Assembly (NCBI GenBank): GCA_000004985.1
Contig: GG738909.1
Reading direction: 5' to 3' (one strand)
DNA from: Naegleria gruberi
Taxonomy: Eukaryota
DNA length: 64,000 nt
The notes under the pieces were generated by a model, which worked only from the letters and a program-made list of their open reading frames with translations, did not search any database and was not told where the DNA came from. Position 1 is the stretch's first letter. Each line of letters starts with the position of its first letter. Position numbers and translations under genes: made by a program. This document shows, in pieces, positions 9,744-61,577 of this stretch.

Positions 9744-9972
9744 TTTTTATTGGTTTTACTTTGTCATAAATCAATGTCAAATTTACAGAGCACCATTTTA
9801 GTGTTTTGGAGATAAAAATAATGCCAATAGATGTAATATCAAATTATTATTATTTTGTAATTCGTTCAACAAAAAACGTTAAATGATGAATTATTAGTTT
9901 TTTGTAACAATGCTAAAGCACAGTTGTTATGTAGACTGTATAAGTAGAGCATAGATTCAATCAACATGTATA

Positions 9973-15985: not shown

Positions 15986-18900
15986 ATGACATCTCTCAAT
16001 GTTAATGTGTTTGACGATAGAGGTTCAAACAGTTCTCAAAGTAATTCGAGGGTGCTGCTCTCTCCACCTCAGGGAGCCAACAATTACTTACTAATTCCAA
16101 CCAGTAACTATGCAGGATCATCAGTATGTTCCTCTGACAGACATTCCAAAACTGACATTTCAGGTTCTGAAGTTAATGCGGTAACAAAACTGAAGAACTC
16201 GACTTTGGAGTTTGTACTCTTCATACAAGACAACCAAGTGAAGGAGGGAATCTATGGTTATGTGATAACCTTGTTGATTCACTTGTACATGTTTTGGATT
16301 GGAATTTTTCTACCAAATCTTGGACCAGAAATGATGTACGGAGATTGGGGAACATGGATTTTCTCAGTACTCAACTATGCTATTACTCTCTCATTTGAAA
16401 GGATCCCTTATAAGGGAGGTATTGTATTGGCTTTTATTGGAGTAGGTATTGTATTGGTATTTGTAATTCTATTGATCTGGACAATCTTTGCCTACAAGAC
16501 AACCTCCCAACATTTAAAGAACTCGAGAAGAGCTATTGCCATCTTTTCCAAAGTATTTCCATTCATATCAGTACCTCTCTTGTACTTGATGACATTCTCT
16601 CTTGATTGTAATTATACAGTAAGCTCATCAAATCTGAATAGATTTGAATTCTATTCCCATGAGGTGATCCAATGCCACGATACTAGCAATATTATATTTG
16701 TGGTGGTAATGATCTTGGCCATCCTGTTATTGATTATACTCAATGTATTCTCCATGCTCATTGTACCAAACTGCCATCCTCAAAATATAGCTCCATTTGT
16801 GACCGATAATCCAGTTTTCATGAGCTTGTTAGTTGCCTTCAATCTGTGGCAACTCTTTTTACACTTTATCATTCCAACACAATACTCTTTTATGAGAGCT
16901 ATTGTTCATAGTGTTGGATCTATTATTTTAATTATAATTTTTGCCAAGCTGATTCCATTCATTAGAAGAATTGAGAATAGTATTGTATTTGGTTGCCTGT
17001 TGGCTAGATTAGCTTCGAGTATTGGAGCTATTGTAACTTCTATTGTAAATAACCCATCCCTATCAAAGATACTGCCATCGGTGGATAATACACTTGGTGT
17101 TGGACTTGCAGGTCTAACTATTGGTTTGATTATTATTGGTTTTGTGCTTGGTTTCTCCCTTATGGAATTGTATACGAGATTTATTGTGAGATCTATTAGA
17201 AACTTTGTTCTGGAATGTATTCAATCAGATAATGATGAAACAAATCTAGATTCCAAAGAAACTGAAAAATACATTGAGAAAGAAGCACAAATTATTTATC
17301 AACAGTTGGTTGAGTCAAGAAAATTAAGGCACCTTAGAATATTCTTTAAATTTTCTATGAAATTCAAAGAAAAATATCCAACGGAAAAATCAGAAACGCC
17401 CACACAGCACAATCTACTCGATATTTATATTTGTATTGCTCTGATTAAGGGGTTCTCTTCCAATAACCAATTAGATAATGAGATTATCCTTCTCTCTAGT
17501 ATGATTATTGCAAATTATTTGCCAAACGAGGTCAATTCTACAACATTTGCTCAAGGACTTTTGAAGAAAGCTTTTAAAAGAAGACCATCCACTTACTATA
17601 ATTTATTAATTAGTCTAGCTCAAAAACAAGTAGAAGCAACGGTCTATCAAACCAATCCAGAGAGCAGAAACAATGTTGAAATGGCCAAGCTTATTGGTCA
17701 CTTAGAAAGAAGACAGGATGAATTACGAGCACTTCACAGAGCTTTCTGGAAGGAAATCATGCAAGAAAATATCAATCATGAAAAATGTGAATCTATTATT
17801 GTAAGGATTGGGATATTGTCTCATGAATGTGAAACTAAATTCAAGAATTTAATGCACATTTACAAAAACGACAAGACAGTTCTTCGATGTGTTGCTAAAT
17901 ATGTAGAATCTTTTAAATTCAATAAGGAAGCTGCTCAGGAATTATATTCTGAAGCAACAACAATTGAAGAAGAGGATTCCAAACGAATGAATGCCTCCTC
18001 TAAAAGAAGAATTAAAAAGAACCAAAAGAACAGAGTGCATCCTCAACAAATCAGTCACGCTTTTGAGACGTTATCTTATGGTGATGCTAATCATCATGAG
18101 GTAGAGTCCACTGTTGTAGGAGATTTGAATAACGATTTTGGTGGTGTTGAGAATAATCCAGAATTGAAGAAGGAGCTTCTGTTCAGGAATGCATTGGCCA
18201 TCTCACATAAGAATCATTCACATCTCACAATGTTTTTCATTTTCATTGTGCTATCCTTGCTAATTTTGGTTTCAACATTAGTAATGAGCTTGATGTTTTC
18301 GAATTATGTTACTGAGAGCGTACTTGTTGTGGATACTGCCTGTACACCGATTGCATCTGCTATTCGAATTGTTAGTGGAACAAGAAGTTATCAGAGCTCT
18401 CTATTGTTGTACAGTTCCAATTCATCAGCTTGGCCTTCATTATTGGCAGAATATGGCTACTCGAGCCTTTCTGAATTCAAGAAAGCTCACAAGAAAGAGC
18501 TAAGGGATAATATTGATTACTTAATTCTATTGAAAGAGCTAGCACAAACAGCCAAGTTTACCACTGATATGTACTCTGAATTTCATGAATACTACTATAG
18601 CTTTAATCAACCAAAGGCAAATACTAATGGTTTGGAAAAGATTTACAACTCTACCACAGCTATCAATATTACCATTGCAGATATTACTAATTTGGCTATA
18701 ACCTATTCAGAGCAGATTTACAAATTTGAAGATGAGGATTATCTACATACTTTCAGCAGTTATCCTTTCATGATACTATTCAACAATAGGAATATTATGA
18801 CAGCAGCTTATTCTTCATTCTGTTACAAATTTGTTGAGGAATCCAAGAGCTATACCAAGACGATTTCCAATACTTTTATTATTTACTACTCTTGCTCAAT

Positions 18901-21257
18901 TGTTGTTTATTTTACTTACACTGCTATTTATTTGTGCTTTGCAAGATTGGATTTGTCTTTTTTGAAAAAGCTTATTGTTTTATTGGAAAAGAATGTGTCA
19001 AAGCATGAAGCAGGAAAAATGTATCACAATTTGGGCAAGCTAGTCCAAGATGACAGCTCTGTAAGACCGGCCAAGAACTCTGCTTTATACCCTAGGAATG
19101 TTGTGGTAGGATTGGGAATTGTGACAGCAATCTGTGTTGCACTCTGTGCTGGTTTGTTCCTAGCTCAAACTCTCAGCAATTCTCAATACAGCTTTGAGTC
19201 CTATGTCACCATGAGGGATGCTTTCAATGCATTAGAAAACTCCCAATATATTGCAGAAGCGATAACTGAGGAATTCATTAATTTAAAAATTGCTGACAAA
19301 ACATTTATTAATGGATTGGTTTCATCTAATACTGAGCGTTCTGAATCTATTCAAGCATCAATTAAGAAATTAAGATTCTATTGGAATATGTGCATGTATG
19401 GGTCTAATTATTACCCAGATGAGACTCTTGTGATTGGTCTTTTCGAAAAGACTGATTTGATGATAAAGGGAGAAGCTAATTGTACATTTGAAAAGATGAT
19501 TTCACATAATTGCAGCATTGGTGTTGATAAATTGATCACAACTTACACGACTAAAGCCACACAACTCACAGAAGATATTGATCTCAAATCAACAACATTT
19601 GAATCATTATTTGATGACTATTTGGTAGTTAGTTTTTTCTCTACCTATGTAAGCAATTCATTACTGTCATTTTCAGATGTATTTGCTATGGCTGCCTCTG
19701 TTCCATCAGACAAGTTGGTGATTCCATTTGCCATTCTTGGATTTTTGACTTTGTTTATATTCTCGATTGGTATTTACATGTCAATGGGAAAGTATTTCAA
19801 TTCAGTCCAACAACTGCGTCTTCTTTTCAATTATCTACCTCTAGACTTGATGGACTCAAACGAAAATATTAAGAATTATATTGTACATCATCATCTTCCT
19901 GACTCATTCTCAAACATTTTTAGAAGAAAGAAAGGTTCTTCATCAGAGGGCGACTCAAAAGTTCGAAGCATTTTGAACGCATCTGTAGATGGAGCAGTGA
20001 TGTGCAGTGGAGAGAAGGTTGATATTGAAATATTCAATCCAGCAGCTCAAAAGATATTTGGATATAATCAAACAGAAACGATTGGCAGATCATTGTATCA
20101 ATTATTTGAAAAGAATGAGCAATCGAAAATTAAAAACCTCATTGATGAAATGTTAGTGAATGCAGCAAGAGGTGATTCGAAAGGAGATTCTATTGAATTG
20201 GAATGTATCAGAAAGAATCAAACAAGCTTCCCATCACGTGTCAATATTTTTGCCACTCTTCACAATTCTCAAAGTGTTGTCACTTGTTTCATTAAGGATA
20301 TTACAACAGAGAAGAAGCATAATTCATTATTGACAGAAGAAAAGAAACATTCTGAAGAATTATTATTGAATATTTTACCAAGTGCAGTGGCAAGTAAATT
20401 GAAATCAGGAGAAACTTATATTGCAGAGAAATTCAATGATGTTTCATGTTTTTTTAGTGACATGGTTGGATTTACAAAATTAAGTACTGGAATTCAAGCA
20501 TCTGAATTGGTTCAAATGTTGAATGAAATTGTAATTGGATTTGATGATTTGACAGACAAATATAATTTGGAAAAGATTAAAACGATTGGAGATTCATATT
20601 TTTGTGTGGGTGGATTACATGGATTAAATGCACAATCAGATCATCCTGAAAGAATTTTGAGATTTTCCATTGATACATTTGATGTTTTACAAAGATTTAA
20701 TTCAAAATCAGGAAAACAACCATCTGAACAAATTAATATTCGTGTTGGTATTAATACTGGAAGTGTTATTGCAGGTGTTATTGGGAGGAAGAAATTTGCC
20801 TATGTATGTTTTTAATTTCAACATTTTAACATTTTATTGTGTAAATTGTACATTTTCAATATTTCATATTAATATATTAATTAAATAGGATTTATGGGGA
20901 GATACAATTAATACAGCTTCAAGAATGGAATCTAATTCAATTCCAGGAAGAATTCAAATTTCCAGATCAACCTATGAAAGAGTTTATGATTTGGGTTTCA
21001 CTTTTGAAGAAAGACATTTAAATGTGAAAGGAAAGGGTGAATGTATTGCTTACATGTTGCATGAGAAACATCACACTCCAGCTCTTGTTCCATCCTTCAC
21101 TGACATGTTGAGAACAAGTTTAAACATTTTACAAAAGAAAAATTCTGCAAATCTTGAAACATTGAATGAACCCAAAACACCAACAAGAAACAATGATAAT
21201 ATTACCTTGACAATCAATCAAGAAGCCTACCTATCTCCAAATAATACTTTGGAGTAA
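15986..21257 (+). CDS. Polytopic PAS-domain class III adenylyl cyclase of about 1730 aa. Model is join(15986..20803,20889..21257).
   Basis: A 1609-codon exon encodes a multi-TM N-terminal block, further TM helices and a PAS-like segment. The cyclase core FFSDMVGFTKLS...KIKTIGDSYFCVGGL...GVIGRKKFAY|DLWGDTINTASRMES spans an 85-nt GTATGT...AG intron. Both metal Asp, the specificity Lys and Asp, and the transition-state Asn/Arg are present. Confidence 0.8.
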
Positions 21258-47129: not shown

Positions 47130-48176
47130 TTATTGCTTTACAAAAAGTGCCCAATCAACTCTTGGAATGATGCTGTCATTTGAGTTATTGTGCAATCTGG
47201 CACACATATGTCCTGCATACAATTCAGTCTTGTAAATTGTTCCATTATCATCAACAGTTACAGGAACAGATACGTAACCTCTTGAAATATCTTGCATGTC
47301 CATGATTGGCCACTCACTTTTAACATCTTTAGCTGATTTTACATCTCCTCTCCAAACACCAGCATCAGAAAATGCAGAAAAAACTCCAATCCATCCACTG
47401 ATATAGGTTGGTCCTGATCCTCCTCCAAATACATGAGCAATTCTGTTCCACCACTTGGTATCTGGATTACCAGAGGCACTTTTAACAAATTGCTCCAAAA
47501 CAGGAAGCAACATGTCAGACCACTTTTTCATAAGTTTGGCCTTTGTATCAAATTCAATTAATCTCTTTGCCCTTTCGTACAAATTTTGCCAATCTTCTTT
47601 CTCTCCCAATAAGGTTACACTTGGTAAGCCACAACGCAAAACATACTTGTAATCAAAGTAGTTCTTGGTTGTTGACATTAACACAACAGCACCAACCATT
47701 TTTTCCAAATTTGTTGTGGTAGAAAAATCTGGCATGATCCAATCTCTCACTGATGGATCTTTGATATTCTTTGCAATTTGTTCAGTCATTCTCAAAGTTA
47801 AATCCGCACAATCGGCAGTGAAGAGAGTTCCACCTCCCACAACAACCAATTCCTTTTTACCATCAAAGTCAACAAATTTGCTTCTCAATTCTTCTGATTT
47901 TGAGTTGACATAATTAGCAAATTGAGTTGCAATTGCAATCCAAACATCATCAGGTCTAATGACTAAATTATGATGTTCTGAATATGCCAAAATTGCTGAG
48001 TGAATAAATGAATTATTTCCAACTGTCAGGAAATCAGGACTTGAGCTACAGCTTGATTTTACCAAGGTGAATTTTTCCTTGGTTTTTGTTGGATCGGGAA
48101 GAATCTGCTTGATCTCAAAAGCTGGAAGGGAAACTTCGTTTGGTTTCTTTGTGGAGACAGTAAATGTGATGGGCAT
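47130..48176 (-). CDS. Hypothetical conserved protein (348 aa), single exon
   Basis: ATG ORF with balanced composition and no motif I can name. Confidence 0.5.
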
Positions 48177-48373
48177 ATTTTTTTTCAGTGTGTTGTTTAA
48201 CCAAGTTCCAAATCACAAGTCAACCAAAAATTGACATTCAAAATTGAAATGTTACTGAATTGACATTACAAAGACAAAGGAAGAAGAAGTATTGATAAAA
48301 GTTATTAAAAGGTACTACTTCCATTCATATTGTTATTTAATTTTGTGAGGAATTTACATGAATTTATTTACAA

Positions 48374-49552
48374 CTAATTAGTGAGTGAAAAAGTGCAAAA
48401 TTTGCAGATCGAGTAAGCAAATGAGTCCAATATGCATGAAAAGGAGGATTTCTTCATGGAATTTTCAATATCATCAAGATAGGTGAGCATATCATTATCA
48501 GACCAAGGTTTGAGGAATGGCATTAACACAGTTTCAATCATTGTCTTGATTACTGATTTCTTGGAGTGGTATTCAGGAAGGAGGTGGTTGGAATGTTGAA
48601 ATCTCTTTGAAATGATGCACCAAGTACAATATCCATTCATTACTTCATCGATGGATTCAAATTGTTTGGAATTGTCTGGGTTGGAAGATTTGATTGTTTC
48701 CATTCGCTGCAATTTCTCTTTGATTAATTCCAATACTTCATTGAGGGATGACTCAAAATCTTCAACTGGGAGTTCTTTTAGTTGGCTGTATGACAAGCCC
48801 TCCTTGAATCCCTTATTCAAAATGATAAAATTGTTAACTACCTTCTTGGCATCTTTAGCGATTGAGGCAACATCATTGAACAAACTGATAATGTCACAAG
48901 CCAAGTGGTTATATTCGATTACATGATCACATGTGTCGATTTCTGGAATGCCTTTAAAGAAATTATTAATTGTAAAGAAAAGAGAGGACATTGAGTCGAC
49001 TCTTCTCTCTTCCAAAAAGGCAAGTAAGGTTTCTTCTGAGACTAGTCCATTATTTTCACATTCATTCTTTGCCTTCTCTATGAGATTGGTTCCAATAGTC
49101 AAGAATTCCAAAACCTTTCCTCTGATACCATCGAATCTACTGTCTTTGATCAGATTATAGACGAGCGTCCCCATCTTATGAGCAGGATTTGTTGCTTGTA
49201 CTGATTCACCTCTGAATATCTTGCAATGTGATTTCATCTCTTCAATAGAAATGTCTGTAATCTTCTCGTCACATGCATCATCAACAATGGAAATGTATGC
49301 AACCAAAGGAATTACAATCTCTGCAAATAACTTTTCGTCTTCTTTGACCATAGTATTAAAGCAGAGAACCAACCACTGTGAAAGATCATATGATCCACAG
49401 TATGTGTACTTGTTGTCTCTGAATTGTAAATCGTTACCAATTAGATTGCTGAAAAGGAGAGAACAATGTTGATCAGATTTCTTCTTATCCAAAGGAACGA
49501 AAATTGCTGACTTGATTTGATTAAAATTGACTTGGGCTTGCATTTTGGTTGT
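48374..49552 (-). CDS. Microbial-type (class I) terpene synthase, about 392 aa
   Basis: Asp-rich DDxxD motif IVDDACDE and a downstream NSE/DTE-like NDVASIAKD motif, in an all-helical-looking protein. The start is inferred at the internal Met MQAQVNF. Confidence 0.55.
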   Translation of the reverse strand, partial: TTKMQAQVNFNQIKSAIFVPLDKKKSDQHCSLLFSNLIGNDLQFRDNKYTYCGSYDLSQWLVLCFNTMVKEDEKLFAEIVIPLVAYISIVDDACDEKITDISIEEMKSHCKIFRGESVQATNPAHKMGTLVYNLIKDSRFDGIRGKVLEFLTIGTNLIEKAKNECENNGLVSEETLLAFLEERRVDSMSSLFFTINNFFKGIPEIDTCDHVIEYNHLACDIISLFNDVASIAKDAKKVVNNFIILNKGFKEGLSYSQLKELPVEDFESSLNEVLELIKEKLQRMETIKSSNPDNSKQFESIDEVMNGYCTWCIISKRFQHSNHLLPEYHSKKSVIKTMIETVLMPFLKPWSDNDMLTYLDDIENSMKKSSFSCILDSFAYSICKFCTFSLTN

Positions 49553-49768
49553 TGTTGTGTGAAATATATTATTGTTTGGTTGTTTTTTTTTGTTGTGAAA
49601 TACAGCTATCTGATCGTGTGTTAATAATAGCTTAATGCAAAATATTTTCACCCACTTTTGCTTGAAGCAAGTTTTTTTGCGACGGATGGTATCTTGCTAC
49701 AAATATCTTTGCTTCAAAACCACCCGAAAATATTCAATCATATGTTGTTTAAATTTTATTAACCAGAT

Positions 49769-51709: not shown

Positions 51710-53361
51710 ATTTGTGAAGATTTGGTTGTTATTGTAAAGGTATTTTGTTGTTATGGTTGTTCAGACACAAAGATTGAAATATTATTGATCAATTGTTGAT
51801 GACGGTATTTATTTGCGTTGGAAATGATCTATTTCACGGGTGGATTTGTTTATAGTGTTTTTTTTGGAAAAACAAGCAAGACTTTGTTCTTCAAGATTGA
51901 ATCTAAAATACGTGGTTAATTGTTAAAAGGAATCTTTTTGTTTGAATCTTTTTAGCGCCCAATCTCAAATATTTGAGAATATTGGAATAAACAGTTAAGT
52001 GAGTTTTTTGTTGTTATTTTAATTTTTCATCACGAAATTTTGCATCGCCAACCATGATTCGTTATTCTACTATTCTAATAGTGTTAATTTTTCTAACAGA
52101 ATTGTTTTATCCGCCTAAATGTTGCCTGTTTGTTTTGTTGGATTAGGAAAAGGAAATGGTCTACTGCACAACCAAGCCACAGGTTGAGTAACTGTAAATC
52201 GAGTTCAATATACCTTAGTCATAAAAACATCATATCAAAATCAACAAGAGGGAAAACTTGATTGTAAAATCACAATTAATCAATATTCCAGGTTAATTCT
52301 ATGTAAAAAAGCTGTGGCCTCATTCAAGATTAATTCGTGTAGTGCGCATAAGAATCCCACAAAATTCTTAACAATGTGGATTCTCGAAACAAAAAAACAA
52401 ATCAATAGTATTGGTTGTGCTGCCGACATTCACAATCATTATCAAATTCATTATCTTTTGATCATCCTCGGATTTGTGTTTTTTACATTCCCATTATTAT
52501 ATAAATAGTATTATCCTAATAGTATTTAAATAGTATTATTAATCTAGTGATAGTATTTTGCCTCTAAATTGTTCATCAACCTAAATATTAATATTAATTG
52601 TTATTACACAACATCAATAATATTGCCTGGCAGCACAATCAATCATATTCTAACCAATATAATTATTTGCCTCATATTCCTCCATTGTACCAACACTACA
52701 AAGAATCAAATCCAAAGCCTAATATTATTATCTAACAGACAATATTAATTCAATTTCTAATCCTCCCTCAATCCAACCCAATCTAATAACCAACCCAAAT
52801 CTCAAAAGCTTTTTGGTCATCCTCCAGAGTATTGATTTTGATCTTTCATTCAATCAAAATCCTGCACCTCAGTCAAAATCCCATACAACCTCATTTTGTG
52901 AGTTTTCTTTTTGATTGAACCGATTCCAACACCGCTACTTGGCGCCAATTTTTTTTGTCCAAATAAGTTGTGGTTCGTCCCTTATTATCCAGCCTGTTTT
53001 TCTACACTACCATAGAAGAGCAAAACAAAACTTGTTCTAGAATATTCATCCGGTCTATTCTGATATCAATATTTGTGTAATTTTACCTCCTCGCTCACTT
53101 TTAAACACTGAACAAAAATCAGAGTTCATTTGGCAAAACTTGGCTTCTCCTCTCTTACTTGTTCATAACTCGATTGGTGTTTTTTCATTCAGATATATAA
53201 TCCACTCACCAAGACACACAGAGATTTTGAACATTCCCCATTATTACTTCCCTATCCTTTCTTTAAAATCCAATCAAAAACCACTATCCGATCCAATTGA
53301 CGATAGAAACTTTTCCATAGCAAACCAACACAAGCTATTCTTAAATTCAGCAAACAAAAAA

Positions 53362-54786
53362 ATGGATCAGCGCAGAAACGTCCAACCTTGCGGAAGTTTT
53401 ACATCAACTTCTTCCCATCTTTCCTCTGCTCCCCTGATGCCATCATCAACCAGCAGCTGTTCAGGTATTGCTTCGAGTAGTAGCAGTATGGGAAACAGCC
53501 AAGGTTTAACGAGTTGCCGTGTCAATAATTCTTCTGGTAATACCGATGCTAATAACATGATGATGAATATGCCTTTAGGATTGGCCCAACGATCAATGCA
53601 ATTTGTTCAACAAAAGAATGACAATATACGTAAAGATTCAATGAAGAGTGTCATTACAAAGCAAAGGAAGACAAAGGATTTGAATTTAGGTGGTTCCTCC
53701 TCCTCTTCAGAACTTAAAAACAGATTATCACCTTCTAAACATTCAGATTCTTCTATCAACATTTTGAATTATCAATATAGAACACCCTTCTCTCTCTTAC
53801 AACTTGATGAAGACATTAGGAGTCGATTGGTGGTTAAGAAGGCTAGTACGCCACCAATTTTTGACTTTATCAGGGGATTAAACAATTCCCTGTTTGAAGA
53901 ACAACAAGCAGATGTAATGATGATGGATGATGAATTTCGTTCAGTTGATATGATTGATACACTTTCTCCTTCTGTTACTTCCTCTTCTCCTGTAAATTAT
54001 CCAACTTCCACTAAACCATCAAGTCCTTCCTCCTCGACACCAATAACTTCTGGTATTATCCTAAGTGATGATGAAGAAGAGTCGTCTTATTCTCTCCTCC
54101 CTCTCAAGAAGATGATTAACCACCAACAAGATGTACATAATGAGAATAAGAAGGTTGACCCAACCGAAGAGAAGGATAAAAAGTTGTATCTTTCCATTGA
54201 ACAAAATCTTCCTGCAATGGTTGATATTTTCACGTTAGATCACCACCATTTACTTGATAGTAGCATTGTTTTCTCCATTCAAAATGTATGCAATAGAAAT
54301 TCAATCAGAATTGATCCATGCTTTAATATTCCAAGTTTAGTGAGAGGAGAACAATTTGCTCTCAATGTACAAAACAGACATTCAAAGTCTGTTAGATTTT
54401 GCATAATGTTTAGAGATCCTTCAGGTACTCATATTTCAGTCTATCCAAAGAAATTAAAAGTTTTGCAATCAGAGAATGACTTGGAATTACTCCCTTCCAA
54501 AGAACAAACCTGCCAAGTATTCGATAGTGCTATGCTACCAAATGTTAACGAAGTAGATGGAGCTTGTAGAGTTTCTCTTATTTTAATGGCCACAACTCAT
54601 GTAAAGTTCAATAATGCAATCGCTGAAATATGCTCAAGAATTCAAGGTATTGAGAAGAATCCAAACTCTTTGAAGGCTTCAATTATGGACAGAGACTTAC
54701 ATCAAAATCATCCTCTGCTTGAAACATCTTCTTCATTCAAAAGAGTTTCTCTCAAATCAATCGAGCTAATGATAAGGAATAGGTAA
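53362..54786 (+). CDS. Ser/Thr-rich hypothetical protein, about 474 aa
   Basis: First ATG of the long track ORF 53140..54786, which itself starts at a TTG. Low-complexity N-terminal half. Confidence 0.45.
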   Translation: MDQRRNVQPCGSFTSTSSHLSSAPLMPSSTSSCSGIASSSSSMGNSQGLTSCRVNNSSGNTDANNMMMNMPLGLAQRSMQFVQQKNDNIRKDSMKSVITKQRKTKDLNLGGSSSSSELKNRLSPSKHSDSSINILNYQYRTPFSLLQLDEDIRSRLVVKKASTPPIFDFIRGLNNSLFEEQQADVMMMDDEFRSVDMIDTLSPSVTSSSPVNYPTSTKPSSPSSSTPITSGIILSDDEEESSYSLLPLKKMINHQQDVHNENKKVDPTEEKDKKLYLSIEQNLPAMVDIFTLDHHHLLDSSIVFSIQNVCNRNSIRIDPCFNIPSLVRGEQFALNVQNRHSKSVRFCIMFRDPSGTHISVYPKKLKVLQSENDLELLPSKEQTCQVFDSAMLPNVNEVDGACRVSLILMATTHVKFNNAIAEICSRIQGIEKNPNSLKASIMDRDLHQNHPLLETSSSFKRVSLKSIELMIRNR

Positions 54787-54841
54787 ACCAAAAGTCACAG
54801 GGAAATTACAGACTGGGTACAAATAAAATTCCTTAGATTTA

Positions 54842-57800
54842 TTACTCTTGAATACTTCTTAGTTGTTTGATACTAGATTTCATTTCCTTGATTATTTCTT
54901 CACACTTTGTGAATTTGCTTACTGTATCCTTTTGTTGTTTGACTGAAGGAACAGCACACTTCCATAATTCTAATTCTTGTTCAAGTAATTTGCAAGTCTT
55001 CTTGTAATGATACTTTTCTTGCTTTGCCTTCTCAATAGCATAGATTAATGTTTGAATATGGGATAGAATCTTGTCCTTTGATGGTTTGACACCAATATCA
55101 GAAATAATTTGATTCTTCTTCTTTTCTTGTTGCAATTCATTGAGCTTTTCTCTGAGGTCAGAAATTTCTGCCTTACCCATTTCGAGTTCATTCTTCATCA
55201 TTGAAACTTCGATTGAAGGTGTTTCACTTGCAGCTGGGGCTTCCGTCAATTCCTTAACTTGTTGTTCTAAGGTTTCCTTCTCCTTTTGTAATCGTTTTAC
55301 AAGTTCGTTATCTATTGCAGGCTCTTGCTTAGCTGTTTTTTCTAATAAAGCAATTGTCTTCTTTTCCAATTCCTTCTTCAGTTTAATAATTTCCTTATCT
55401 TTTTCTTGAGATGTAACCTCCCAAGATTTACACTTTTTAGAGAGATCAATTGCATCCCTCTTGATTTCCTTCAACTCGGCTTCCTTTTCCTTGAGTGTTT
55501 TAAGAGACTTTTCAAGAGTATCTTTCTTTTCTTGGGATTCCTTTTCTAGAGATTTGTGTTGTTTTTGCAAGTCGTGGAGTTCCTTTTCAATAGAGCTTCT
55601 CCTGGAAATTTCCTTCTCAATACTATCCTTACTCTTCCTCAGATCTTCAGATAATTGTTTAATCTTGGATGATTGATTACTTGTTTGAGAGTTTAGTTGT
55701 GAAATTTCCTCTTCAGATTTTTCTTTTAGAATATTAAGCTCAGTTTCACAACTTTCCTTCATTACTCCAATTTCATCTTGATAGGATTTTTTAACACTTT
55801 CCATTTCTCTTTCATATCTCGTTTTTAGTTCATTCAAATCAAATTCGTATTTTTCCTTTTGATTAATGATTTCTGTTTTGCTTGCTTCTTGGAGTTTCTT
55901 GATTTCACTTTCATATATTTCCTTAAGTTTTTGAATTTCACTTCTTTGTTCTAATGTTGTTTTATCCAAGTTTGAAAGCAAGGTGTTTTCCAACTGAGAT
56001 TTGTTTTCCATTTCTGTATGTAATTGTTCATGCAAATTATCTTTTTCTTCAGTTAGGGAATTAACAGTATTATTCAAGTTATATACAATTTTAAGAGTAT
56101 TTTCCAATTCTGATCTTGTAGAATCCCTATCTTGTGTTGTGTTTTGTAATTCCTCTTTTAATTTAGAAAGTTCTTGATTGGTGGTATTCAATTTCTCGTT
56201 CAATTTTTTGCTTTCTTCCTCTAAAGTAATTTGGGCCTCTTTCTCCTTATTATATTCAGCCAATTCTTTGGTCATATCATCAGTCTTTTGCAAAAGAGTT
56301 TTCAAGAGACTTTCTTTATCTGTTAACTGTTGAGTAAGATCGGACTTGGTTTCTTGTAAAGTTTTGGATACATCTTCGAACTTTTCTTGCAAATCATTGA
56401 ATTTTGAATTGAGGGAAGAGTGTTCTTTTTGTTTTGCCTCTAATTGAAGTTGCAGGGAAATCACAGTTTCATTCGAGTTTCTCAACTCATCTTGAATTTT
56501 CTTGATGGTTTCTAGAGCTTGTTGGTAATTGTTGTCAAGTCTATTCTTCTCTTCTTCAAGCTTGTTATTTTCAACAACCAAAGTCTCGTGGTTGGAGGAG
56601 GCATCATGCTTCATTTTCTCCAAAAGAGATTCAACATTATTCTTTTTTTGTGTTAAATGAGAGATTTGATCATCTTTTGTTGTAATTACTTCATCTTTAG
56701 ATGTAATAATTGATCTCAAGTCTTCAAGCTCTTTAATTCTCTCCTCCAATTGATTCTTATGTTCATTTAGCGCAAGTTTAAGTTCTTCTATTTGTTTTTC
56801 TGAAGACATGTAATTGGATTCAATCAATTTTTTAAGATTAGCAACAGTTTCATTTTCAGAATGCAATTCGTTAGTGAGGTCCAAAATAGTATTACTTCTT
56901 TCTGAAAGTGTGGATTGCAATTCAGCAAACTGTGAGGATATCTTTTCATACTTCTCTTCAGATTCTTTAACCATTTGTTGCACGTCATTGGAGCTCTTGT
57001 TCATATCTATTTGATTTTGATTGACAATATTTGTCAATCGGTCAATTTCTGATGTTAATTTTAAGGATTTTTCTCTTTCTGAATGCAAATCTTGGGAAAT
57101 TTCATGAATTGAAACCTTCAATTCAGACTCTGAAATTGAAAGTTGTTGAATTTGGGATTCCTTTCCCTCAACTTCTTTTTCCTTCGTCTTAATTCGATCT
57201 TCAACCTCTGCCAATTTCTTATTATGTTCTAATTCTGTTTGCTGGAGTTGTTTTTCAATTTCTGTCAATCTTTGTTTAAGGTCTTCTTCAGAAGCTGTTG
57301 ATTTTTCTTTAAAGATATTGAATTCATTTTGGAAAGATTGTTTCAATGATCTTTCTTCCTCTATTTGAGATAAAAGTTTTGTTTCTGTTTGCTCGTGGTT
57401 TAGAGAAAATGTGTTTTTAAGATCGGCTATTTTAGACTTGTAATTTTCTCTTTCGAGAGAAAAAGTTTGATTATATTGAGCCATCTCTTTCTTCAAACTT
57501 TCGATTTGATGCTCCAAATCATCCTTTGTTCTTACCATTTTCTTTTCTAACAGTTCTTTTTCTTTTTGAGAATTCAGCAACTTTGTTTGATCCTCTTTCA
57601 AAGTTTCTTTGAGGGTAATGATTGAATCTTGTAATTGCATATTTTGATTATTTGTTTCTTTTAGTTTTTCTAATGTTGCATCTTCATTGTTCTTTGATTC
57701 AATTAGAGTTTGTTCAAGAAGAGAAATTTGCTCTCTCATTAAATTGTTATGCTCTCCAAGTTCTGACTTTCCTGAATGTTCAACCTTTAACTTATCAGCT

Positions 57801-59598
57801 AAATCTTTGCATTCCTTTTCCAAGGAATGTTGCTTTTCTAATGTCTGCTCGAGTAAGGTTTGTTTTTCAGCCATTATGTTGTTAGTATTTTGTAATTGTG
57901 ATTCGAAAGAGGCCTTTTCATCCTGTAAGTGGTGTACTTCTTTTTGAAGTTTACGCTCCAAATCCGCTCTCTTTTTCTTTTCAACCTCGATACTATCTAA
58001 AAGCTCTTCCATTTGGCTAGCATGTTTAATGGTTAGATCTTCAATGATTTTTTGATATTCCTCTTCTGAAGATTTAAGAACCTCTTCAGATTTAACCATA
58101 TCATTCTTCTCCTTTTCGTGTTGATCACGTAAGTTTTCTAAATCTTGTTTTAATTGTTTCTCTCTTTCTGTTGTTACATTCAAACTGGTTTGAAGGGTTT
58201 CCATTTGATGCATCTTTTCATTTAATTGTGATTTAAACTCAGTAACAATCTTATTTCTTTCCTCAATCAAATGTGATGATATTTTTCCAATTTCTGTGGA
58301 AGTGAACGATCCTAAGGTAGATCCAGTCTTTTGAATTTGTTCCAAATATTCCGTTCTGATGTCTACTTGATTTTTCTTCAAGTCTTTGAATTCCTTGGAT
58401 ACTTTTAACAGCTTTGATTTAACAGATTCATTATTGGATTTAAGCTTGAAAATTATTGTTTCATAGGCTTGTTTCAACTTCTCAATCTCTTGTGTGTCAA
58501 TTTGGGGTTGCTGGACTGGAGGAACCTCTGATGGTTTTGATGGTTGTGGTGTGACAGTTGCTGGTTGTTGTGGTTGTTGAACTAGTTGGGCGGTTGTTTG
58601 TGATTTTGGTTGAGGAATCTTTTTCAAAATACAAGACGAAGTTTGTTCCATTGTTTTCTTGGCTGCTTCTGCTGCCGAAACATGTGGAGAACAGTTGGCA
58701 AGTATGATTGCTCTAAAGTCATCAGTTAATAATTGAGAAAATACTGTCGAGAATAAGGTATTGGCATCATTTCTGATTCCCTTTAAATAATCTGATAATG
58801 GAACCATTTCTTCCAATCCAACATCTACAAAAGACAAGTTTGAAGTGATAACTCCTTCTAATCTGAAAGTATAAATTAGTGTTCCTGGAGAGGCATCTTG
58901 TTGGTCTTCTTTCAAAACAATTTTCATTGCTTCATTCAGGTCCTTCATATTACGAATAACACTATTATCTGATATTGTGTTCATATCCCAAATCCTTATT
59001 AAAACTTACTCTTTGATAATTCCACCAAACCATTTTGTTTTACTTTAATGACTAAAAGTCTCAAAGTTGTTCCTAGCATCACTTGGTCAATAATATGTTT
59101 GAAACACCTGTAGAGGAGAGCATCATTTGGTCCAATTTCTTCCGAATCCCAATTTCTCGTTCCAATAATTGAGAATGATTTTCCACTGTATTTTGCACCA
59201 CAACTCACAACTACATTGCTGCATCCGGATAGAATATCTATATTGTTCGATAACATTAAGTGTTAAGGTAACTTAGTACTTACCTGCAACAATTGAAGAT
59301 CCAATGGCATCAAATATTTGTTCTGGAGTTGTACTCATTGGGAAAACCTTATCAAAATCAAACTTTACAGGTTTATCCACTCCGTACTTTACATTTGATT
59401 AACAATTAGCCTTAATTTCCAACTCACCTTCAAGAGAACATTCTTCAAAGACTTGTGGAAGGCTACACTACATTGGGCCTTTTTATCAGTTTCATCACTC
59501 ATTTCAAACTTAATAAAAGGCCTAAATCTACAATATTTGACCAAGTCAGCCCTTGGTTCGTCGACTGCAGAAGTAACCTCACTTTCAGTAACAGACAT
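54842..59598 (-). CDS. Kinesin-like protein with a divergent motor domain and a roughly 1300-aa coiled-coil tail, about 1542 aa. Model is complement(join(54842..58968,59010..59237,59284..59386,59428..59598)).
   Basis: Motor landmarks: KYCRFRPF, FDFDKVF, and P-loop GAKYSGKS. The switch I-like DASPGTLIYTF and switch II-like SNLSFVDVGLEE are both degenerate. Three short GT-AG introns (41, 46 and 41 nt) have verified phases. The rest is continuous heptad repeats. Confidence 0.7.
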
Positions 59599-59936
59599 TT
59601 TTTTAAAGGTGAGGGCAATTTGCTTTCTGAAACTGGCGCTGCCGTAAACTCACTGTTTTTTGCAGTGAAGAATCAGAACTAATAATATTTTTCTAATAAT
59701 GATGAATATTGTATGGCACAGAGTATTTGTTCCATCTTTCTGCTGTGTTGTTGCTATTAGTGTAATCTAATTATTATTATTTGTTGTCATAGCAATTTCT
59801 TTCGGATGCCAGCAAAATCCATCAAGAAGAAAAATTAAAATATTTATCAACCGCCAAAAAATCATCAACTTGGCGAAATTTTTTGATAACGGCAACCTAG
59901 GTTAAATAACACTTCTTATATCGTCATCATATAATT

Positions 59937-61577
59937 ATGAAACGAAAACATCAAGCAACTATTGTAACACCAACCCCAGTTGAAGATGATGGTCATCGTG
60001 TTCCTGATCAACATGTAACAAACTATGATATTTTCGAACACTATTCAAAGAAAGCTAAAAATTCAATTTTTCAGAAGGACGACCTGGAGACAGATCGTTT
60101 CCACTGCGATTATTGCAAGAAGGACATTTCATCATCGTTGAGAATACGTTGTGCTGAGTGTGATGAATTTGATTTGTGTGCTGATTGCTTTTTTGTTGGT
60201 GTAGAAACAAAAGAACATAAGAATGATCATGCCTATCGGGTGATGGAATATTTGCAAGCTCCTCTCCTATCTACAACATGGACAGCTGATGAAGAATTAC
60301 AACTCCTTGAAGGAATCTCCCAGAAGGGTCTAGGAAATTGGTTAGATATTGCCGAACACATAGGCAAGCAAAAATCAAAATATGAATGTGAATATCACTA
60401 TTGGACACTCTATGTAGATAGGCCAATTGCAAAGAGAAGAGCCTTATTGGAGAAGATTAAAACTCAGAAAGTTGTTGATGATTCAACGGGTTCATCAAGT
60501 GAAGACACTGAAATTTATGTACCTGTTCCAGATACTAAAGCTCCAATTCAAAATGAAAAGATGAACATTTCCAAGAAGGATCTGAAAAAAGATGATGATG
60601 GTATCATTTGGTCTGTAAGAAAGGAGTTATCCCTTCCACCAGTGAATATGCAAACTATTTTCAATGAGAATGTAAAGGCGCATCCAGAATGTGCCAAGTT
60701 TGTGATGGGAACTCTCCTTTCTAGGGAGCCAATTATTGTTGGTAATAGAAAGAATGTTCAGCAATTGGGTCAAGATATAGGTTATCTGCCTCTGAGAGCA
60801 GATTTTGAGACAGATTTCGATTACTGTGCTGAAGATATCATTGCAGAGTTGGAAATTCTCCCTACTGACACACCTGAAGAAAAGGAAAAGAAACTAGATT
60901 ATTTGAGATTATACGAATTTAGATTAAGTGAAAGAGAACGAAGAAAAAAGTTTGCTGTTGAAAGGGGTTTATTCGATTGGAAGAGAATCAGTGCTGTTGA
61001 AAAGAAGAGAAACAAGATGGAAAAAGAATTGTATCAACGATATAGACCATTTGCCAGATTCCTGGACGATCAAGATGAGTTTGACTCTTTCATGGCTGGG
61101 GTTATTCAAGAGACTAAGATAAGAAATAGAATTCAACAACTTAAAGAATATAGAGCTAATGGTTTAACATCTTTGGAACAATGTGACTTGTTTGAATCTG
61201 AAAACAAAAAGAGAGAAGCAGATTTTGACCTGAAGAAAGCTAGAGAGGGTAATATCAAATCTCCTTCAATTAAGAGAAATGCAGAGGTAATTACTGGTAC
61301 ACCAAAAGATCCAAACATGGTTGGTATTGAAATGTTGTCAAAGAGGGAACGTAGTTTCTGTGTTGGTTTACAACTCTATCCAAAGCATTACATACTTATT
61401 AAGGATGTTTTGATAAGAGAATCGGTGCAATTAGGATTTGTCTCAAAGGCAACAGCTTGTAAATTATTTACTGATTTTGAAAAGGACGTTATTTCAAAAA
61501 TTCACGACTTTTTTGTTTCAAATAATTGGATTCTTGGTGCTCCACAAGCTACACAAGAAGGCAGTTCAGGTAAATAA
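59937..61577 (+). CDS. Transcriptional adaptor ADA2 (ZZ zinc finger + SANT + SWIRM)
   Basis: ZZ finger CDYCKKDISSSLRIRCAECDEFDLCADCF...H, SANT domain WTADEELQLLEGISQKGLGNWLDIAEHIG, and a C-terminal SWIRM-like region. Single exon. Confidence 0.85.
   Translation: MKRKHQATIVTPTPVEDDGHRVPDQHVTNYDIFEHYSKKAKNSIFQKDDLETDRFHCDYCKKDISSSLRIRCAECDEFDLCADCFFVGVETKEHKNDHAYRVMEYLQAPLLSTTWTADEELQLLEGISQKGLGNWLDIAEHIGKQKSKYECEYHYWTLYVDRPIAKRRALLEKIKTQKVVDDSTGSSSEDTEIYVPVPDTKAPIQNEKMNISKKDLKKDDDGIIWSVRKELSLPPVNMQTIFNENVKAHPECAKFVMGTLLSREPIIVGNRKNVQQLGQDIGYLPLRADFETDFDYCAEDIIAELEILPTDTPEEKEKKLDYLRLYEFRLSERERRKKFAVERGLFDWKRISAVEKKRNKMEKELYQRYRPFARFLDDQDEFDSFMAGVIQETKIRNRIQQLKEYRANGLTSLEQCDLFESENKKREADFDLKKAREGNIKSPSIKRNAEVITGTPKDPNMVGIEMLSKRERSFCVGLQLYPKHYILIKDVLIRESVQLGFVSKATACKLFTDFEKDVISKIHDFFVSNNWILGAPQATQEGSSGK

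What the first reader, a model, noticed from the sequence alone, without database searches (positions are those of the whole stretch)
54842..59598. Kinesin-like protein with intact P-loop but degenerate switch I/II, plus a giant coiled coil
The N-terminal approximately 240 aa follow kinesin order (CRFRPF, FDFDKVF, GxxxxGKS). Where SSRSH should be it reads DASPGT, and DLAGSE reads DVGLEE. This likely abolishes ATP hydrolysis and motility. The motor is split by three 41-46-nt introns. The tail is about 1300 aa of uninterrupted heptads. It could be a pseudo-motor scaffold rather than a working motor.
Basis: partly seen in the sequence, partly recalled or inferred. Interest (0 to 1): 0.6.

Follow-up and report, generated by a model that had tools for sequence, protein, structure and literature searches.

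The report
Dead kinesin head on long coil
This Naegleria-type amoeba gene encodes a 1542-residue protein whose kinesin-like head keeps the ATP-binding pocket but has lost the parts needed to burn ATP and grip microtubules, so it is most likely a conserved non-motor scaffold.

Summary
A four-exon gene on the minus strand (59598-54842; GT-AG introns of 41, 46 and 41 nt) encodes 1542 aa.

- **Kinesin homology.** Residues about 20-285 are a real but shrunken kinesin domain: Pfam Kinesin 50.7 bits, and a family profile against KIF5B gives 99.2% probability over KIF5B residues 5-316.
- **Retained motifs.** RxRP (CRFRP) and the P-loop (GAKYSGKS) are kept.
- **Lost motifs.** ASPGT aligns to SSRSH and DVGLEE to DLAGSE. 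About 26 residues of L11/alpha4 and about 21 of beta5/L8 are missing. No canonical motif occurs in any frame of the locus.
- **Conservation.** The same pattern recurs in five other lineages: a syntenic Naegleria lovaniensis gene with the same intron positions, three metagenomic lineages, and partial fragments of a fifth. The head (54% identity to N. lovaniensis) and the C-terminal 90 aa (63%) are far better conserved than the stalk (25%). It is therefore a selected pseudo-motor, not a pseudogene.
The head spans about 285 aa, not 240. The tail is about 1217 aa of segmented coiled coil, not 1300 aa of uninterrupted heptads.

I found no description of this family. It is a new variant of the known class of non-catalytic kinesins. 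Its function is inferred, not shown.

The parts
54842..59598 (-). Whole coding region, start codon to stop codon, 1542 aa after splicing
   Evidence: four exons, 4629-nt CDS, no internal stop
59428..59598 (-). Exon 1 (aa 1-57). It holds the RxRP motif and is the most conserved block of the family
   Evidence: (73% identity to N. lovaniensis)
59387..59427 (-). Intron 1, 41 nt, GTGAGT..AG, phase 0
   Evidence: Same position in N. lovaniensis, where it is 80 nt. ORF fragments of four relatives read through into GTx at this point
59284..59386 (-). Exon 2 (aa 58-92), contains FDFDKVF
59238..59283 (-). Intron 2, 46 nt, GTAAGT..AG, phase 1
   Evidence: Same position in N. lovaniensis, where it is 50 nt
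59010..59237 (-). Exon 3 (aa 92-168), contains the P-loop
58969..59009 (-). Intron 3, 41 nt, GTAAGT..AG, phase 1
   Evidence: Same position in N. lovaniensis, where it is 43 nt. Reading through hits a stop codon
54842..58968 (-). Exon 4 (aa 168-1542 plus stop): C-terminal half of the head, linker, stalk and C-terminal block
58616..59541 (-). Kinesin-derived head, aa 20-285 (genomic span includes the three introns). It has 266 residues against 318 for the equivalent part of KIF5B
   Evidence: Pfam PF00225. hhalign 99.2% across KIF5B 5-316. Lengths
59515..59532 (-). N1 motif CRFRPF (RxRP, adenine pocket), retained
   Evidence: Aligned to KIF5B CRFRPL. The RFR is invariant in the family; the following Pro is Thr in L004
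59176..59199 (-). P-loop GAKYSGKS (GxxxxGK[ST]), retained, followed by an aromatic residue (F113)
   Evidence: Orthologues read GGQGTGKT, GGPKSGKT and GAESTGKS, but GGKYSGRS in N. lovaniensis
58880..58897 (-). DASPGT at the switch I position; ASPGT aligns to SSRSH
   Evidence: Profile alignment and MAFFT; hhalign agrees on the region but puts a gap inside this stretch, so its register is uncertain by 1-2 residues
58808..58825 (-). DVGLEE at the switch II position (DLAGSE). The Asp is kept; the catalytic Gly is replaced by Leu
   Evidence: Orthologues read DATLDD, DIGLEE, DLNMLD, DLHQND and DLIQEH
58646..58699 (-). ANCSPHVSAAEAAKKTME, the family signature at beta8/alpha6 of the kinesin fold
   Evidence: Nearly invariant among relatives. 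Aligns to KIF5B ICCSPSSYNESETKSTLL
58496..58615 (-). Pro/Gln-rich linker, aa 286-325, between the head and the coiled coil. There is no kinesin-type neck coil next to alpha6
   Evidence: 10% identity to N. lovaniensis
55121..58495 (-). Coiled-coil stalk, aa 326-1450: rich in E, K, L and Q, segmented heptads, no internal repeats
   Evidence: 25% identity to N. lovaniensis
54845..55120 (-). Conserved C-terminal region, aa 1451-1542. Its core is KILSHIQTLIYAIEKAKQEKYHYKKTCKLLEQELE (54971-55081)
   Evidence: 63% identity to N. lovaniensis. Recognisable in the L002 and L004 orthologues. No match in Pfam or PDB

Best explanation
The gene encodes a non-catalytic kinesin-like protein, a 'pseudo-kinesin'. 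It belongs to a small conserved family found in Naegleria and in a few unidentified environmental protists.

Shown:
- The N-terminal head (about aa 20-285) descends from a kinesin motor domain along its whole length.
- It keeps the adenine and phosphate-binding pocket: RxRP, GxxxxGK[ST] and the aromatic residue after the P-loop.
- It has no switch I SSRSH and no switch II glycine.
- It lacks about 26 residues of L11/alpha4 and about 21 of beta5/L8.
- Its segment from switch II to beta8 is acidic.
- It is joined to the stalk by a roughly 40-residue flexible linker instead of a neck linker plus neck coil.

Inferred:
- The head may still hold a nucleotide as a structural or regulatory ligand. It cannot sense the gamma-phosphate, hydrolyse ATP at a useful rate, or couple nucleotide state to microtubule binding, so it does not walk.
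- The stalk of about 1125 residues forms a segmented parallel coiled-coil dimer, roughly 150-170 nm long if fully extended.
- That dimer would carry two heads at one end and the conserved 90-residue C-terminal block at the other.
- The protein would then act as a long tether or scaffold. The strongly conserved N-terminal lobe of the head (aa 20-90) and the C-terminal block would be its two binding surfaces.

The partners and the cellular site are unknown.
For: Homology: Pfam Kinesin 50.7 bits. Family profile against PDB kinesin-1, E 4e-14. hhalign 99.2%, E 3e-19, over KIF5B 5-316. A low-confidence AF2 model of the L002 orthologue's partial head has the kinesin order of secondary-structure elements, and its top Foldseek hits are all kinesin-1, E 3e-8.

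Dead catalytic site: the motifs align to SSRSH and DLAGSE, and no canonical motif lies in any frame.

Family-wide pattern: N. lovaniensis, L002, L004 and L006 all have degenerate switches, as do fragments P0001 and P0002. Three other heads and fragment P0006 keep GxxxxGK[ST]; N. lovaniensis has K->R, which argues that even the Walker lysine is dispensable.

Loss of the microtubule interface: the segment from switch II to beta8 is 46-48 aa with net charge -4 to -8 in all five full-length heads. In KIF5B it is 73 aa with net charge 0.

Selection: a 1542-codon ORF with conserved intron positions and conserved synteny with ADA2. Identity to N. lovaniensis is 54% in the head, 63% in the C-terminus and 25% in the stalk. 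Of 59 invariant head columns, 34 lie in aa 23-86.

Stalk: 3.5-residue periodicity and heptad scores well above those of shuffles.
Against: - No biochemical, expression or localisation data exist for this protein.
The model of the window's own isolated C-terminal half was low-confidence and gave no significant fold match.
- Residue-level placement of the switch I remnant is uncertain by 1-2 positions between the alignments.
- Retention of the P-loop in most lineages could mean that some nucleotide turnover persists.
- Some non-catalytic kinesin domains still bind microtubules, for example Vik1 and Cik1, so binding through another surface is not excluded.
- Dimerisation and the extended length are inferred from heptad statistics only.
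Confidence: 0.62

Rival explanations
1. Static (rigor-type) microtubule binder or cross-linker. The head no longer hydrolyses ATP but still binds the microtubule lattice, as reported for KIF26/VAB-8-type kinesins or the Vik1/Cik1 motor-homology domains. The coiled coil would then link microtubules to another structure.
For: The head is of kinesin origin. The heads of the window and of N. lovaniensis are mildly basic, pI 8.1-8.4. Non-catalytic kinesin-fold domains that bind microtubules do exist (PMC4338441). Naegleria builds elaborate microtubule arrays de novo (bioRxiv 10.1101/2024.01.08.573270).
Against: The canonical interface is gone. L11/alpha4 is shortened by about 26 residues and beta5/L8 by about 21. 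The remaining alpha4-L12-alpha5 segment is acidic in every full-length head, and the L002 head has net charge -21. The YRDSK-type motif is not conserved. The most conserved surface is the N-terminal lobe, not the tubulin-facing side.
Confidence: 0.2
2. Non-catalytic partner of a working kinesin. The protein would heterodimerise through its stalk with a catalytic kinesin and tune that motor, in the way Vik1 and Cik1 tune Kar3.
For: There is a precedent for non-catalytic heads that enable processivity (PMC4338441). The protein has a long dimerisation-competent stalk.
Against: No paralogue with a matching stalk was seen. The exhaustive search with the C-terminal half of the head found only orthologues. 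Unlike Vik1 and Cik1, the head keeps a P-loop and sits at the N-terminus. A 40-residue flexible linker would decouple the two heads.
Confidence: 0.08
3. A working motor with unorthodox catalytic residues.
For: RxRP and the P-loop are intact in the window and in most orthologues.
Against: These losses are known to abolish kinesin-1 activity (established mutagenesis, cited from my own knowledge): the switch I Ser-Ser-Arg, the switch II Gly (replaced by Leu or Met in all lineages) and L11/alpha4. N. lovaniensis even has Arg in place of the Walker Lys. There is no neck linker or neck coil.
Confidence: 0.06
4. A decaying pseudogene or an artefact of gene modelling.
For: The Pfam match covers only half of the domain. 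The public N. lovaniensis model is broken.
Against: The 4629-nt ORF is uninterrupted and has consistent GT-AG introns. Orthologues exist in at least five other lineages, and the head is conserved far better than the stalk. A second strain or allele carries an identical exon 1 product. The defects in the N. lovaniensis model are annotation errors and homopolymer assembly errors.
Confidence: 0.02

Closest known systems
Kinesin-1 heavy chain (KIF5; PDB 1MKJ, 1BG2)
   Same: It is the best-scoring canonical relative in every search. Both have an N-terminal head followed by a long coiled-coil stalk and a conserved C-terminal region. Both have a Cys-Arg-Phe-Arg-Pro beta1 motif and a GxxxxGK[ST] P-loop.
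   Different: This protein has no SSRSH and no DLAGSE, and beta5/L8 and L11/alpha4 are shortened. It has no neck linker or neck coil. Its C-terminal block does not match the full-length kinesin-1 chains in PDB. The margin over kinesin-8, -4, -12 and -7 is only a few bits, so subfamily membership is unresolved.
Kinesin-11: KIF26A/B and C. elegans VAB-8 (atypical kinesins)
   Same: The head is N-terminal, kinesin-like and highly divergent. VAB-8 is listed among the sequences too divergent for kinesin phylogenies (PMC2867816). The KIF26 proteins are described as atypical or unconventional kinesins that act in signalling (PMC5590807). That KIF26A lacks ATPase activity comes from my own knowledge.
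   Different: Kinesin-11 is a metazoan family with a long, mostly disordered tail rather than a 1200-residue coiled coil, and it is reported to bind microtubules. I ran no direct sequence comparison, and a shared origin is unlikely given the taxonomic distance.
Costal2 / KIF7 (kinesin-4 derived)
   Same: It is a kinesin-derived scaffold with a coiled-coil stalk. It was excluded from the kinesin phylogeny as atypical and possibly non-motile, binding microtubules independently of ATP (PMC2867816).
   Different: It is a metazoan Hedgehog-pathway scaffold from a different kinesin family. I did not test whether it carries comparable deletions.
Vik1 / Cik1 motor-homology domains (partners of yeast Kar3)
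   Same: The kinesin fold is used as a non-catalytic module at the end of a coiled coil (PMC4338441).
   Different: Their motor-homology domain is C-terminal, has no nucleotide-binding site at all (from my own knowledge) and works only as a heterodimer with a catalytic kinesin-14. Here the head is N-terminal and keeps the RxRP and P-loop pocket.
Smy1 (S. cerevisiae divergent kinesin-1-like protein)
   Same: It is a divergent N-terminal kinesin-like head on a coiled coil, and it is cited as a divergent kinesin in PMC2867816. That its role is independent of microtubules comes from my own knowledge.
   Different: Smy1 still scored at least 100 on the Pfam model, high enough to be included in kinesin trees (PMC2867816). 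This head scores about 50 bits and has larger deletions. The protein here is also much longer.

Membership tests
Kinesin superfamily (Pfam PF00225 motor domain) | Significant match to the kinesin motor-domain profile | tested here: met
   50.7 bits against a gathering cut-off of 29.3, E 1.7e-13, but only profile positions 1-145 of 327 align. hhalign against KIF5B gives 99.2% over the whole domain.
Kinesin superfamily (Pfam PF00225 motor domain) | N1 RxRP and N2 P-loop GxxxxGK[ST] (nucleotide pocket) | tested here: met
   CRFRP at aa 23-27 and GAKYSGKS at aa 105-112 align to KIF5B CRFRP and GQTSSGKT.
Kinesin superfamily (catalytically active motor) | Switch I NxxSSRSH | tested here: not met
   QQDASPGT lies at that position. 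hhalign agrees on the region but not on the exact register. No such motif occurs in any frame of 54000-60500.
Kinesin superfamily (catalytically active motor) | Switch II DxxGxE (DLAGSE) with the gamma-phosphate-sensing Gly | tested here: not met
   The sequence is DVGLEE. The Asp and the last Glu are kept, but the Gly position is Leu. It is Leu, Met, Gln or Gln in the orthologues.
Kinesin superfamily (catalytically active motor) | Full-length L11-alpha4-L12-alpha5 microtubule-binding and relay element | tested here: not met
   The segment from switch II to beta8 is 46 aa with net charge -4, against 73 aa with net charge 0 in KIF5B. All five full-length heads show the same pattern.
Kinesin superfamily (catalytically active motor) | ATPase activity stimulated by microtubules, and motility | not testable with these tools
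   This needs purified protein.
Kinesin-1 | Neck linker followed directly by a neck coiled coil after alpha6 | tested here: not met
   After ...TMEQTSSCILKKI comes a 40-residue Pro/Gln-rich linker (aa 286-325) before the heptads start.
Kinesin-1 | Conserved kinesin-1 tail region | tested here: not met
   A profile of the C-terminal block did not hit the full-length kinesin-1 chains present in PDB (8RHB, 9PMB). The best hit was Beclin-2, E 0.1.
Kinesin-1 | Placement inside the kinesin-1 clade in a motor-domain phylogeny | not tested
   I only have score ranking: kinesin-1 55.7 bits, KIF18A 53, KIF4 48.7 and KIF15 48.3. Sequences scoring below 100 on the Pfam model were excluded from the reference phylogeny (PMC2867816).
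Vik1/Cik1-type motor-homology domain | C-terminal kinesin fold with no nucleotide-binding motifs, in an obligate heterodimer with a kinesin-14 | tested here: not met
   The head is N-terminal and keeps RxRP and the P-loop. Heterodimerisation is not testable here.
New Naegleria-type pseudo-kinesin family (defined here) | Four features together: the N-terminal signature YCRFRPFIKxE..D[KR]KxQCSVAFHK..KN.LLKYGV.[KR]P.KFDF[DE][KR]VF; the beta8/alpha6 signature NCSPH[VI]SA.E..KTME; degenerate switches; and a coiled coil of more than 1000 aa with a conserved C-terminal block | tested here: met
   Alignments A1, A2, A5 and A3. Members are the window, N. lovaniensis L001, L002, L004/L005, L006, and fragments P0001, P0002, P0006-P0013, P0015 and P0017.

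The most novel reading that the evidence does not exclude
An old, selectively maintained family of kinesin heads that still bind adenine nucleotide but have lost both the hydrolysis machinery and the tubulin interface. The kinesin fold would have been converted into a nucleotide-loaded protein-protein interaction module at the tip of a tether about 150 nm long. Its new binding surface would lie on the N-terminal beta1 lobe (aa 20-90), and its function would not involve microtubules. That would make it a 'pseudo-enzyme' counterpart among cytoskeletal motors to pseudokinases that need ATP only for stability.
Probability: 0.3. Interest if true: 0.65.

Novelty: new variant of a known kind. Interest (0 to 1): 0.45.

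Why it matters
Non-catalytic relatives of motors show which parts of the kinesin fold can be reused for other work. Most known cases come from animals or yeast: KIF26/VAB-8, Costal2, Vik1/Cik1 and Smy1.

This family comes from a distant branch of eukaryotes, the Heterolobosea. It keeps the nucleotide pocket while deleting the switch II/alpha4 relay, and its strongest conservation lies on the N-terminal lobe. That pattern gives a clear, testable question: does a kinesin head that cannot hydrolyse ATP or dock on tubulin still use nucleotide binding, and for what?

Naegleria assembles basal bodies, flagella and a divergent mitotic spindle from scratch. An uncharacterised 1542-residue kinesin-derived tether is therefore a reasonable candidate component of one of those structures.

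There are also practical points. Kinesin surveys that discard low-scoring Pfam matches miss this family. The public N. lovaniensis gene model for it is wrong.

Tried and rejected
- **Word-indexed protein search** with the spliced head found nothing. Exact look-ups of the window ORFs found nothing.
- **C-terminal half of the head alone against PDB:** no kinesin hit; the best hit was a methyltransferase, E 0.6. That half is recognisable only through profiles.
- **AF2 of the window's isolated aa 169-290:** mean pLDDT 60 in one of five models, and Foldseek gave nothing significant. This is inconclusive and I did not use it as evidence.
- **AF2 of the L002 partial head:** pLDDT 48.8. I use it only as weak support.
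- **C-terminal block against Pfam and PDB:** only noise from coiled-coil proteins. I therefore reject the idea that it is a kinesin-1 tail.
- **Hidden exon carrying SSRSH or DLAGSE:** rejected by a six-frame scan. An SSRSH at 40295 lies in an unrelated Ser-rich ORF.
- **Internal duplication in the stalk:** none at E <= 1e-3.
- **Literature search for 'pseudokinesin':** nothing relevant. The Naegleria microtubule papers do not mention this gene.
- **P0004 from the exhaustive search** is a bacterial-type repeat protein and a chance hit.

Full report
**What is in the sequence**

The feature is a gene on the minus strand. Reading the reverse strand and splicing three short GT..AG introns gives a 4629-nt CDS without internal stops. 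The introns are 59427-59387 (41 nt), 59283-59238 (46 nt) and 59009-58969 (41 nt). The CDS encodes 1542 aa. Without splicing, each exon runs into a stop codon, so the introns are required.

The window has 30-37% G+C. The neighbouring genes are:
- an intronless ADA2-type gene, divergent from this one, at 59937-61577;
- a SET/MYND gene;
- a PAS-domain adenylate/guanylate cyclase;
- a terpene-synthase-like ORF;
- a DUF4419 gene.

The closest named relative of the gene is in Naegleria lovaniensis, which belongs to Heterolobosea, Discoba. A Logan assembly, ERR1078381, carries the same locus with 15 mismatches in 1689 nt. The window therefore comes from a Naegleria species. The G+C content fits N. 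gruberi, but that is from my memory and I did not test it.

**Is the head a kinesin?**

Yes, but a reduced one.
- Pfam Kinesin (PF00225) scores 50.7 bits, E 1.7e-13, above the gathering cut-off of 29.3. Only profile positions 1-145 of 327 align, matching aa 24-169.
- phmmer against PDB gives kinesin-1 as the best hit, E 5e-8, again for the N-terminal half.
- The C-terminal half on its own finds no kinesin.
- Once orthologues were collected, a family profile hit kinesin-1 at E 4e-14 and aligned through beta8/alpha6.
- hhalign of the four full-length heads then in hand (L006 was found later) against KIF5B gave 99.2% probability, E 3e-19, over family columns 15-291 and KIF5B residues 5-316.

The whole region of about aa 20-285 is therefore kinesin-derived, not only the first 240 aa.

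**The motifs**

In the MAFFT alignment with KIF5B and in the profile alignment:

| Kinesin element | KIF5B | This protein |
|---|---|---|
| N1 (RxRP) | CRFRP | CRFRP, retained |
| P-loop | GQTSSGKT-H | GAKYSGKS-F, retained |
| Switch I | SSRSH | ASPGT |
| Switch II | DLAGSE | DVGLEE |
| beta8 | ICCSPS | ANCSPH |

hhalign shifts the switch I remnant by one or two residues, but it shows no SSRSH-like motif either. A regular-expression scan of all six frames of 54000-60500 found no switch I or switch II motif other than these remnants.

- about 21 residues of beta5/L8;
- about 7 residues before switch I;
- about 26-27 residues covering L11 and the first half of alpha4.

The head has 266 residues, against 318 for the equivalent part of KIF5B. 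The segment from switch II to beta8 is 46 aa with net charge -4. In KIF5B it is 73 aa with net charge 0. After alpha6 comes a Pro/Gln-rich linker of 40 residues (aa 286-325) instead of a neck linker and neck coil.

**Relatives**

An exhaustive phmmer search with aa 169-290 against 1.84 billion representative proteins found three true relatives:
- P0001, 70% identical;
- P0002, 46% identical;
- P0003, which is N. lovaniensis XP_044548368/KAG2382689, annotated 'Kinesin motor domain-containing protein'.

The N. lovaniensis locus (L001) is syntenic, with an ADA2 gene upstream. It has introns at the same three positions in the head. The public model there is wrong in three ways. The start is truncated. 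A false intron removes the switch region. Assembly frameshifts cut off the conserved C-terminus. When rebuilt, its head reads GGKYSGRS (Walker Lys replaced by Arg), ENLPGT and DATLDD.

Profile searches and one metagenome scan gave exon-sized fragments and three further loci that could be spliced:
- **L002:** 1655 aa, same architecture; GGQGTGKT, DPKENCT, DLNMLD.
- **L004/L005:** GGPKSGKT, SNDGTYV, DLHQND.
- **L006:** GAESTGKS, QSRCSRV, DLIQEH.

Their intron positions differ from those of Naegleria, so they come from other protist lineages. I could not identify those lineages.

All full-length members share these features:
- the N-terminal signature YCRFRPFIKxE..D[KR]KxQCSVAFHK..KN.LLKYGV..P.KFDF..VF;
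- the NCSPH[VI]SA.E..KTME signature;
- the shortened, acidic switch II-to-beta8 segment, 46-48 aa with net charge -4 to -8;
- a coiled coil of more than 1000 aa.

A conserved C-terminal block was also found in the four lineages whose 3' end is available: the window, N. lovaniensis, L002 and L004. The L006 contig ends before it.

**Selection**

Identity between the window protein and N. lovaniensis varies sharply by region:

| Region | Identity |
|---|---|
| Head | 54% (65% in the first 100 aa) |
| Linker | 10% |
| Stalk | 25% |
| C-terminal 92 aa | 63% |

Of the 59 columns invariant among four full-length heads, 34 lie in aa 23-86. That stretch covers beta1, the beta1a-c lobe, beta2 and the start of alpha1. 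In working kinesins the most conserved parts are the switch regions and alpha4. Here the constraint has moved to another face of the domain. This pattern, the intact long ORF and the conserved introns together rule out a pseudogene.

**Structure prediction**

- A model of P0016, the L002 head from alpha2 onwards, has low confidence (mean pLDDT 48.8). Its secondary-structure order is helix, two strands, helix, two strands, short helix, helix, strand, helix. That matches alpha2-beta4-beta5-alpha3-beta6-beta7-alpha4-alpha5-beta8-alpha6 of kinesin. All top Foldseek hits are kinesin-1 motor domains, E 3e-8, TM about 0.4. I treat this as weak support.
- The model of the window's own aa 169-290 reached pLDDT 60 in one of five models and gave no significant fold match. 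It is inconclusive.

**The tail**

Residues 326-1542 consist of 16% Glu, 15% Lys, 12% Leu and 8% Gln, with five Pro residues, all after aa 1384. Power at a 3.5-residue period is several times the random expectation in most 56-residue windows. In a heuristic heptad score, 62% of tail residues lie in windows above the 95th percentile of composition-matched shuffles. The figure for the head is 11%. There are at least 13 register changes and several gaps. The stalk contains no internal sequence repeats. It is therefore a long but segmented coiled coil, about 1217 aa including the C-terminal block. It is not 1300 aa of uninterrupted heptads. The C-terminal block matches nothing in Pfam or PDB, including the full-length kinesin-1 chains.

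**How it most likely works**

Shown:
- the head is of kinesin origin;
- the adenine and phosphate pocket is retained (RxRP, GxxxxGK[ST], aromatic residue after the P-loop) in five of six lineages;
- switch I, the switch II glycine, L11/alpha4 and L8 are lost in all lineages;
- the neck is flexible;
- the N-terminal lobe and the C-terminal block are under selection.

From established kinesin enzymology, cited from my own knowledge: the switch I serines and arginine and the switch II glycine and glutamate form the gamma-phosphate sensor and the closed 'phosphate tube' needed for hydrolysis. L11-alpha4-L12-alpha5 is the main tubulin-binding surface. It is also the relay between the nucleotide site and the microtubule.

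Inference:
- The head cannot hydrolyse ATP productively.
- It cannot couple nucleotide state to microtubule affinity and cannot step.
- At most it holds a nucleotide as a structural ligand. The K->R change in N. lovaniensis suggests that even this may be dispensable.
- The protein is best read as a dimeric rod-shaped tether or scaffold. The head's N-terminal lobe and the C-terminal block would be its two interaction sites.

Rivals:
- a static microtubule binder, which is possible but disfavoured by the deleted and acidic interface;
- a non-catalytic partner of a real kinesin, for which I found no candidate;
- an unorthodox active motor;
- a pseudogene.

**Comparison with what is known**

Kinesin-1 is the closest canonical family by score, but only by a few bits over kinesin-8, -4, -12 and -7. 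The neck and tail features of kinesin-1 are not met. The reference kinesin phylogeny excluded sequences scoring below 100 on the Pfam model. It names Cos2 and VAB-8 as excluded atypical cases and Smy1 as a divergent kinesin that was still included (PMC2867816). This family scores about 50-110 bits, so most of its members would fall in that excluded, unclassified bin.

Functionally it belongs with the known non-catalytic kinesin-like proteins: KIF26/VAB-8 (PMC5590807), Costal2, Smy1 and Vik1/Cik1 (PMC4338441). It differs from each of them in lineage, in domain order or architecture, and in its combination of a kept P-loop with a deleted switch II/alpha4 relay. I found no paper that describes it. 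The only public label is an automatic one.

**Verdict**

The finding is a new variant of a known kind and is of moderate interest.

Noticed in passing
L001 5898-10024 (N. lovaniensis PYSW02000023.1): The public gene model XP_044548368/KAG2382689 for the orthologue is mis-built. The start is truncated and loses CRFRPF. A false intron removes the switch I/II stretch. Assembly frameshifts, near 5898-5929 and at an A-run near 9806, cut off the conserved C-terminal 72 aa.
   Followed up: yes
L002 8001-8477 (JGI metagenome 3300062347, protein P0005): The first exon of a distant orthologue is named 'DNA replication protein DnaC' by the source. This is most likely a P-loop-driven misannotation by a prokaryotic pipeline run on a eukaryotic contig.
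   Followed up: partly
window 53140-54786 (+): A 548-aa Ser-rich ORF with no Pfam match converges on the kinesin-like gene. Only 55 nt separate the two stop codons, so the 3' ends must be very short or overlap.
   Followed up: no
window 59599-59936: A 338-nt region lies between the divergent start codons of the kinesin-like gene and an intronless ADA2-type gene (59937-61577; ZZ, SANT and SWIRM domains). An ADA2 gene is also upstream in N. lovaniensis, though a 356-aa gene sits between them there.
   Followed up: partly
window 15986-20815 (+): A 1609-aa ORF combines TmcB-type TPR repeats, a PAS domain and an adenylate/guanylate cyclase catalytic domain. The cyclase match stops at profile position 126 of 183 at the end of the ORF, so an intron probably follows.
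   Followed up: no
window 47130-49651 (-): Two ORFs lie next to each other: a DUF4419 protein (E 6e-107) and a terpene-synthase-like protein (PF19086, E 5e-6). This is an unusual pair for a protist genome.
   Followed up: no
L003 1-1689 = window 59043-60731: A Logan assembly of run ERR1078381 carries the same locus with 15 mismatches in 1689 nt and an identical exon 1 product. It is a second strain or allele of the same species.
   Followed up: partly
L001 6360-6372 (N. lovaniensis P-loop): The Walker A lysine is arginine (GGKYSGRS, codon CGA) in N. lovaniensis. The window and three other heads, plus fragment P0006, keep lysine. This suggests that constraint on nucleotide binding is relaxed in at least one lineage.
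   Followed up: partly
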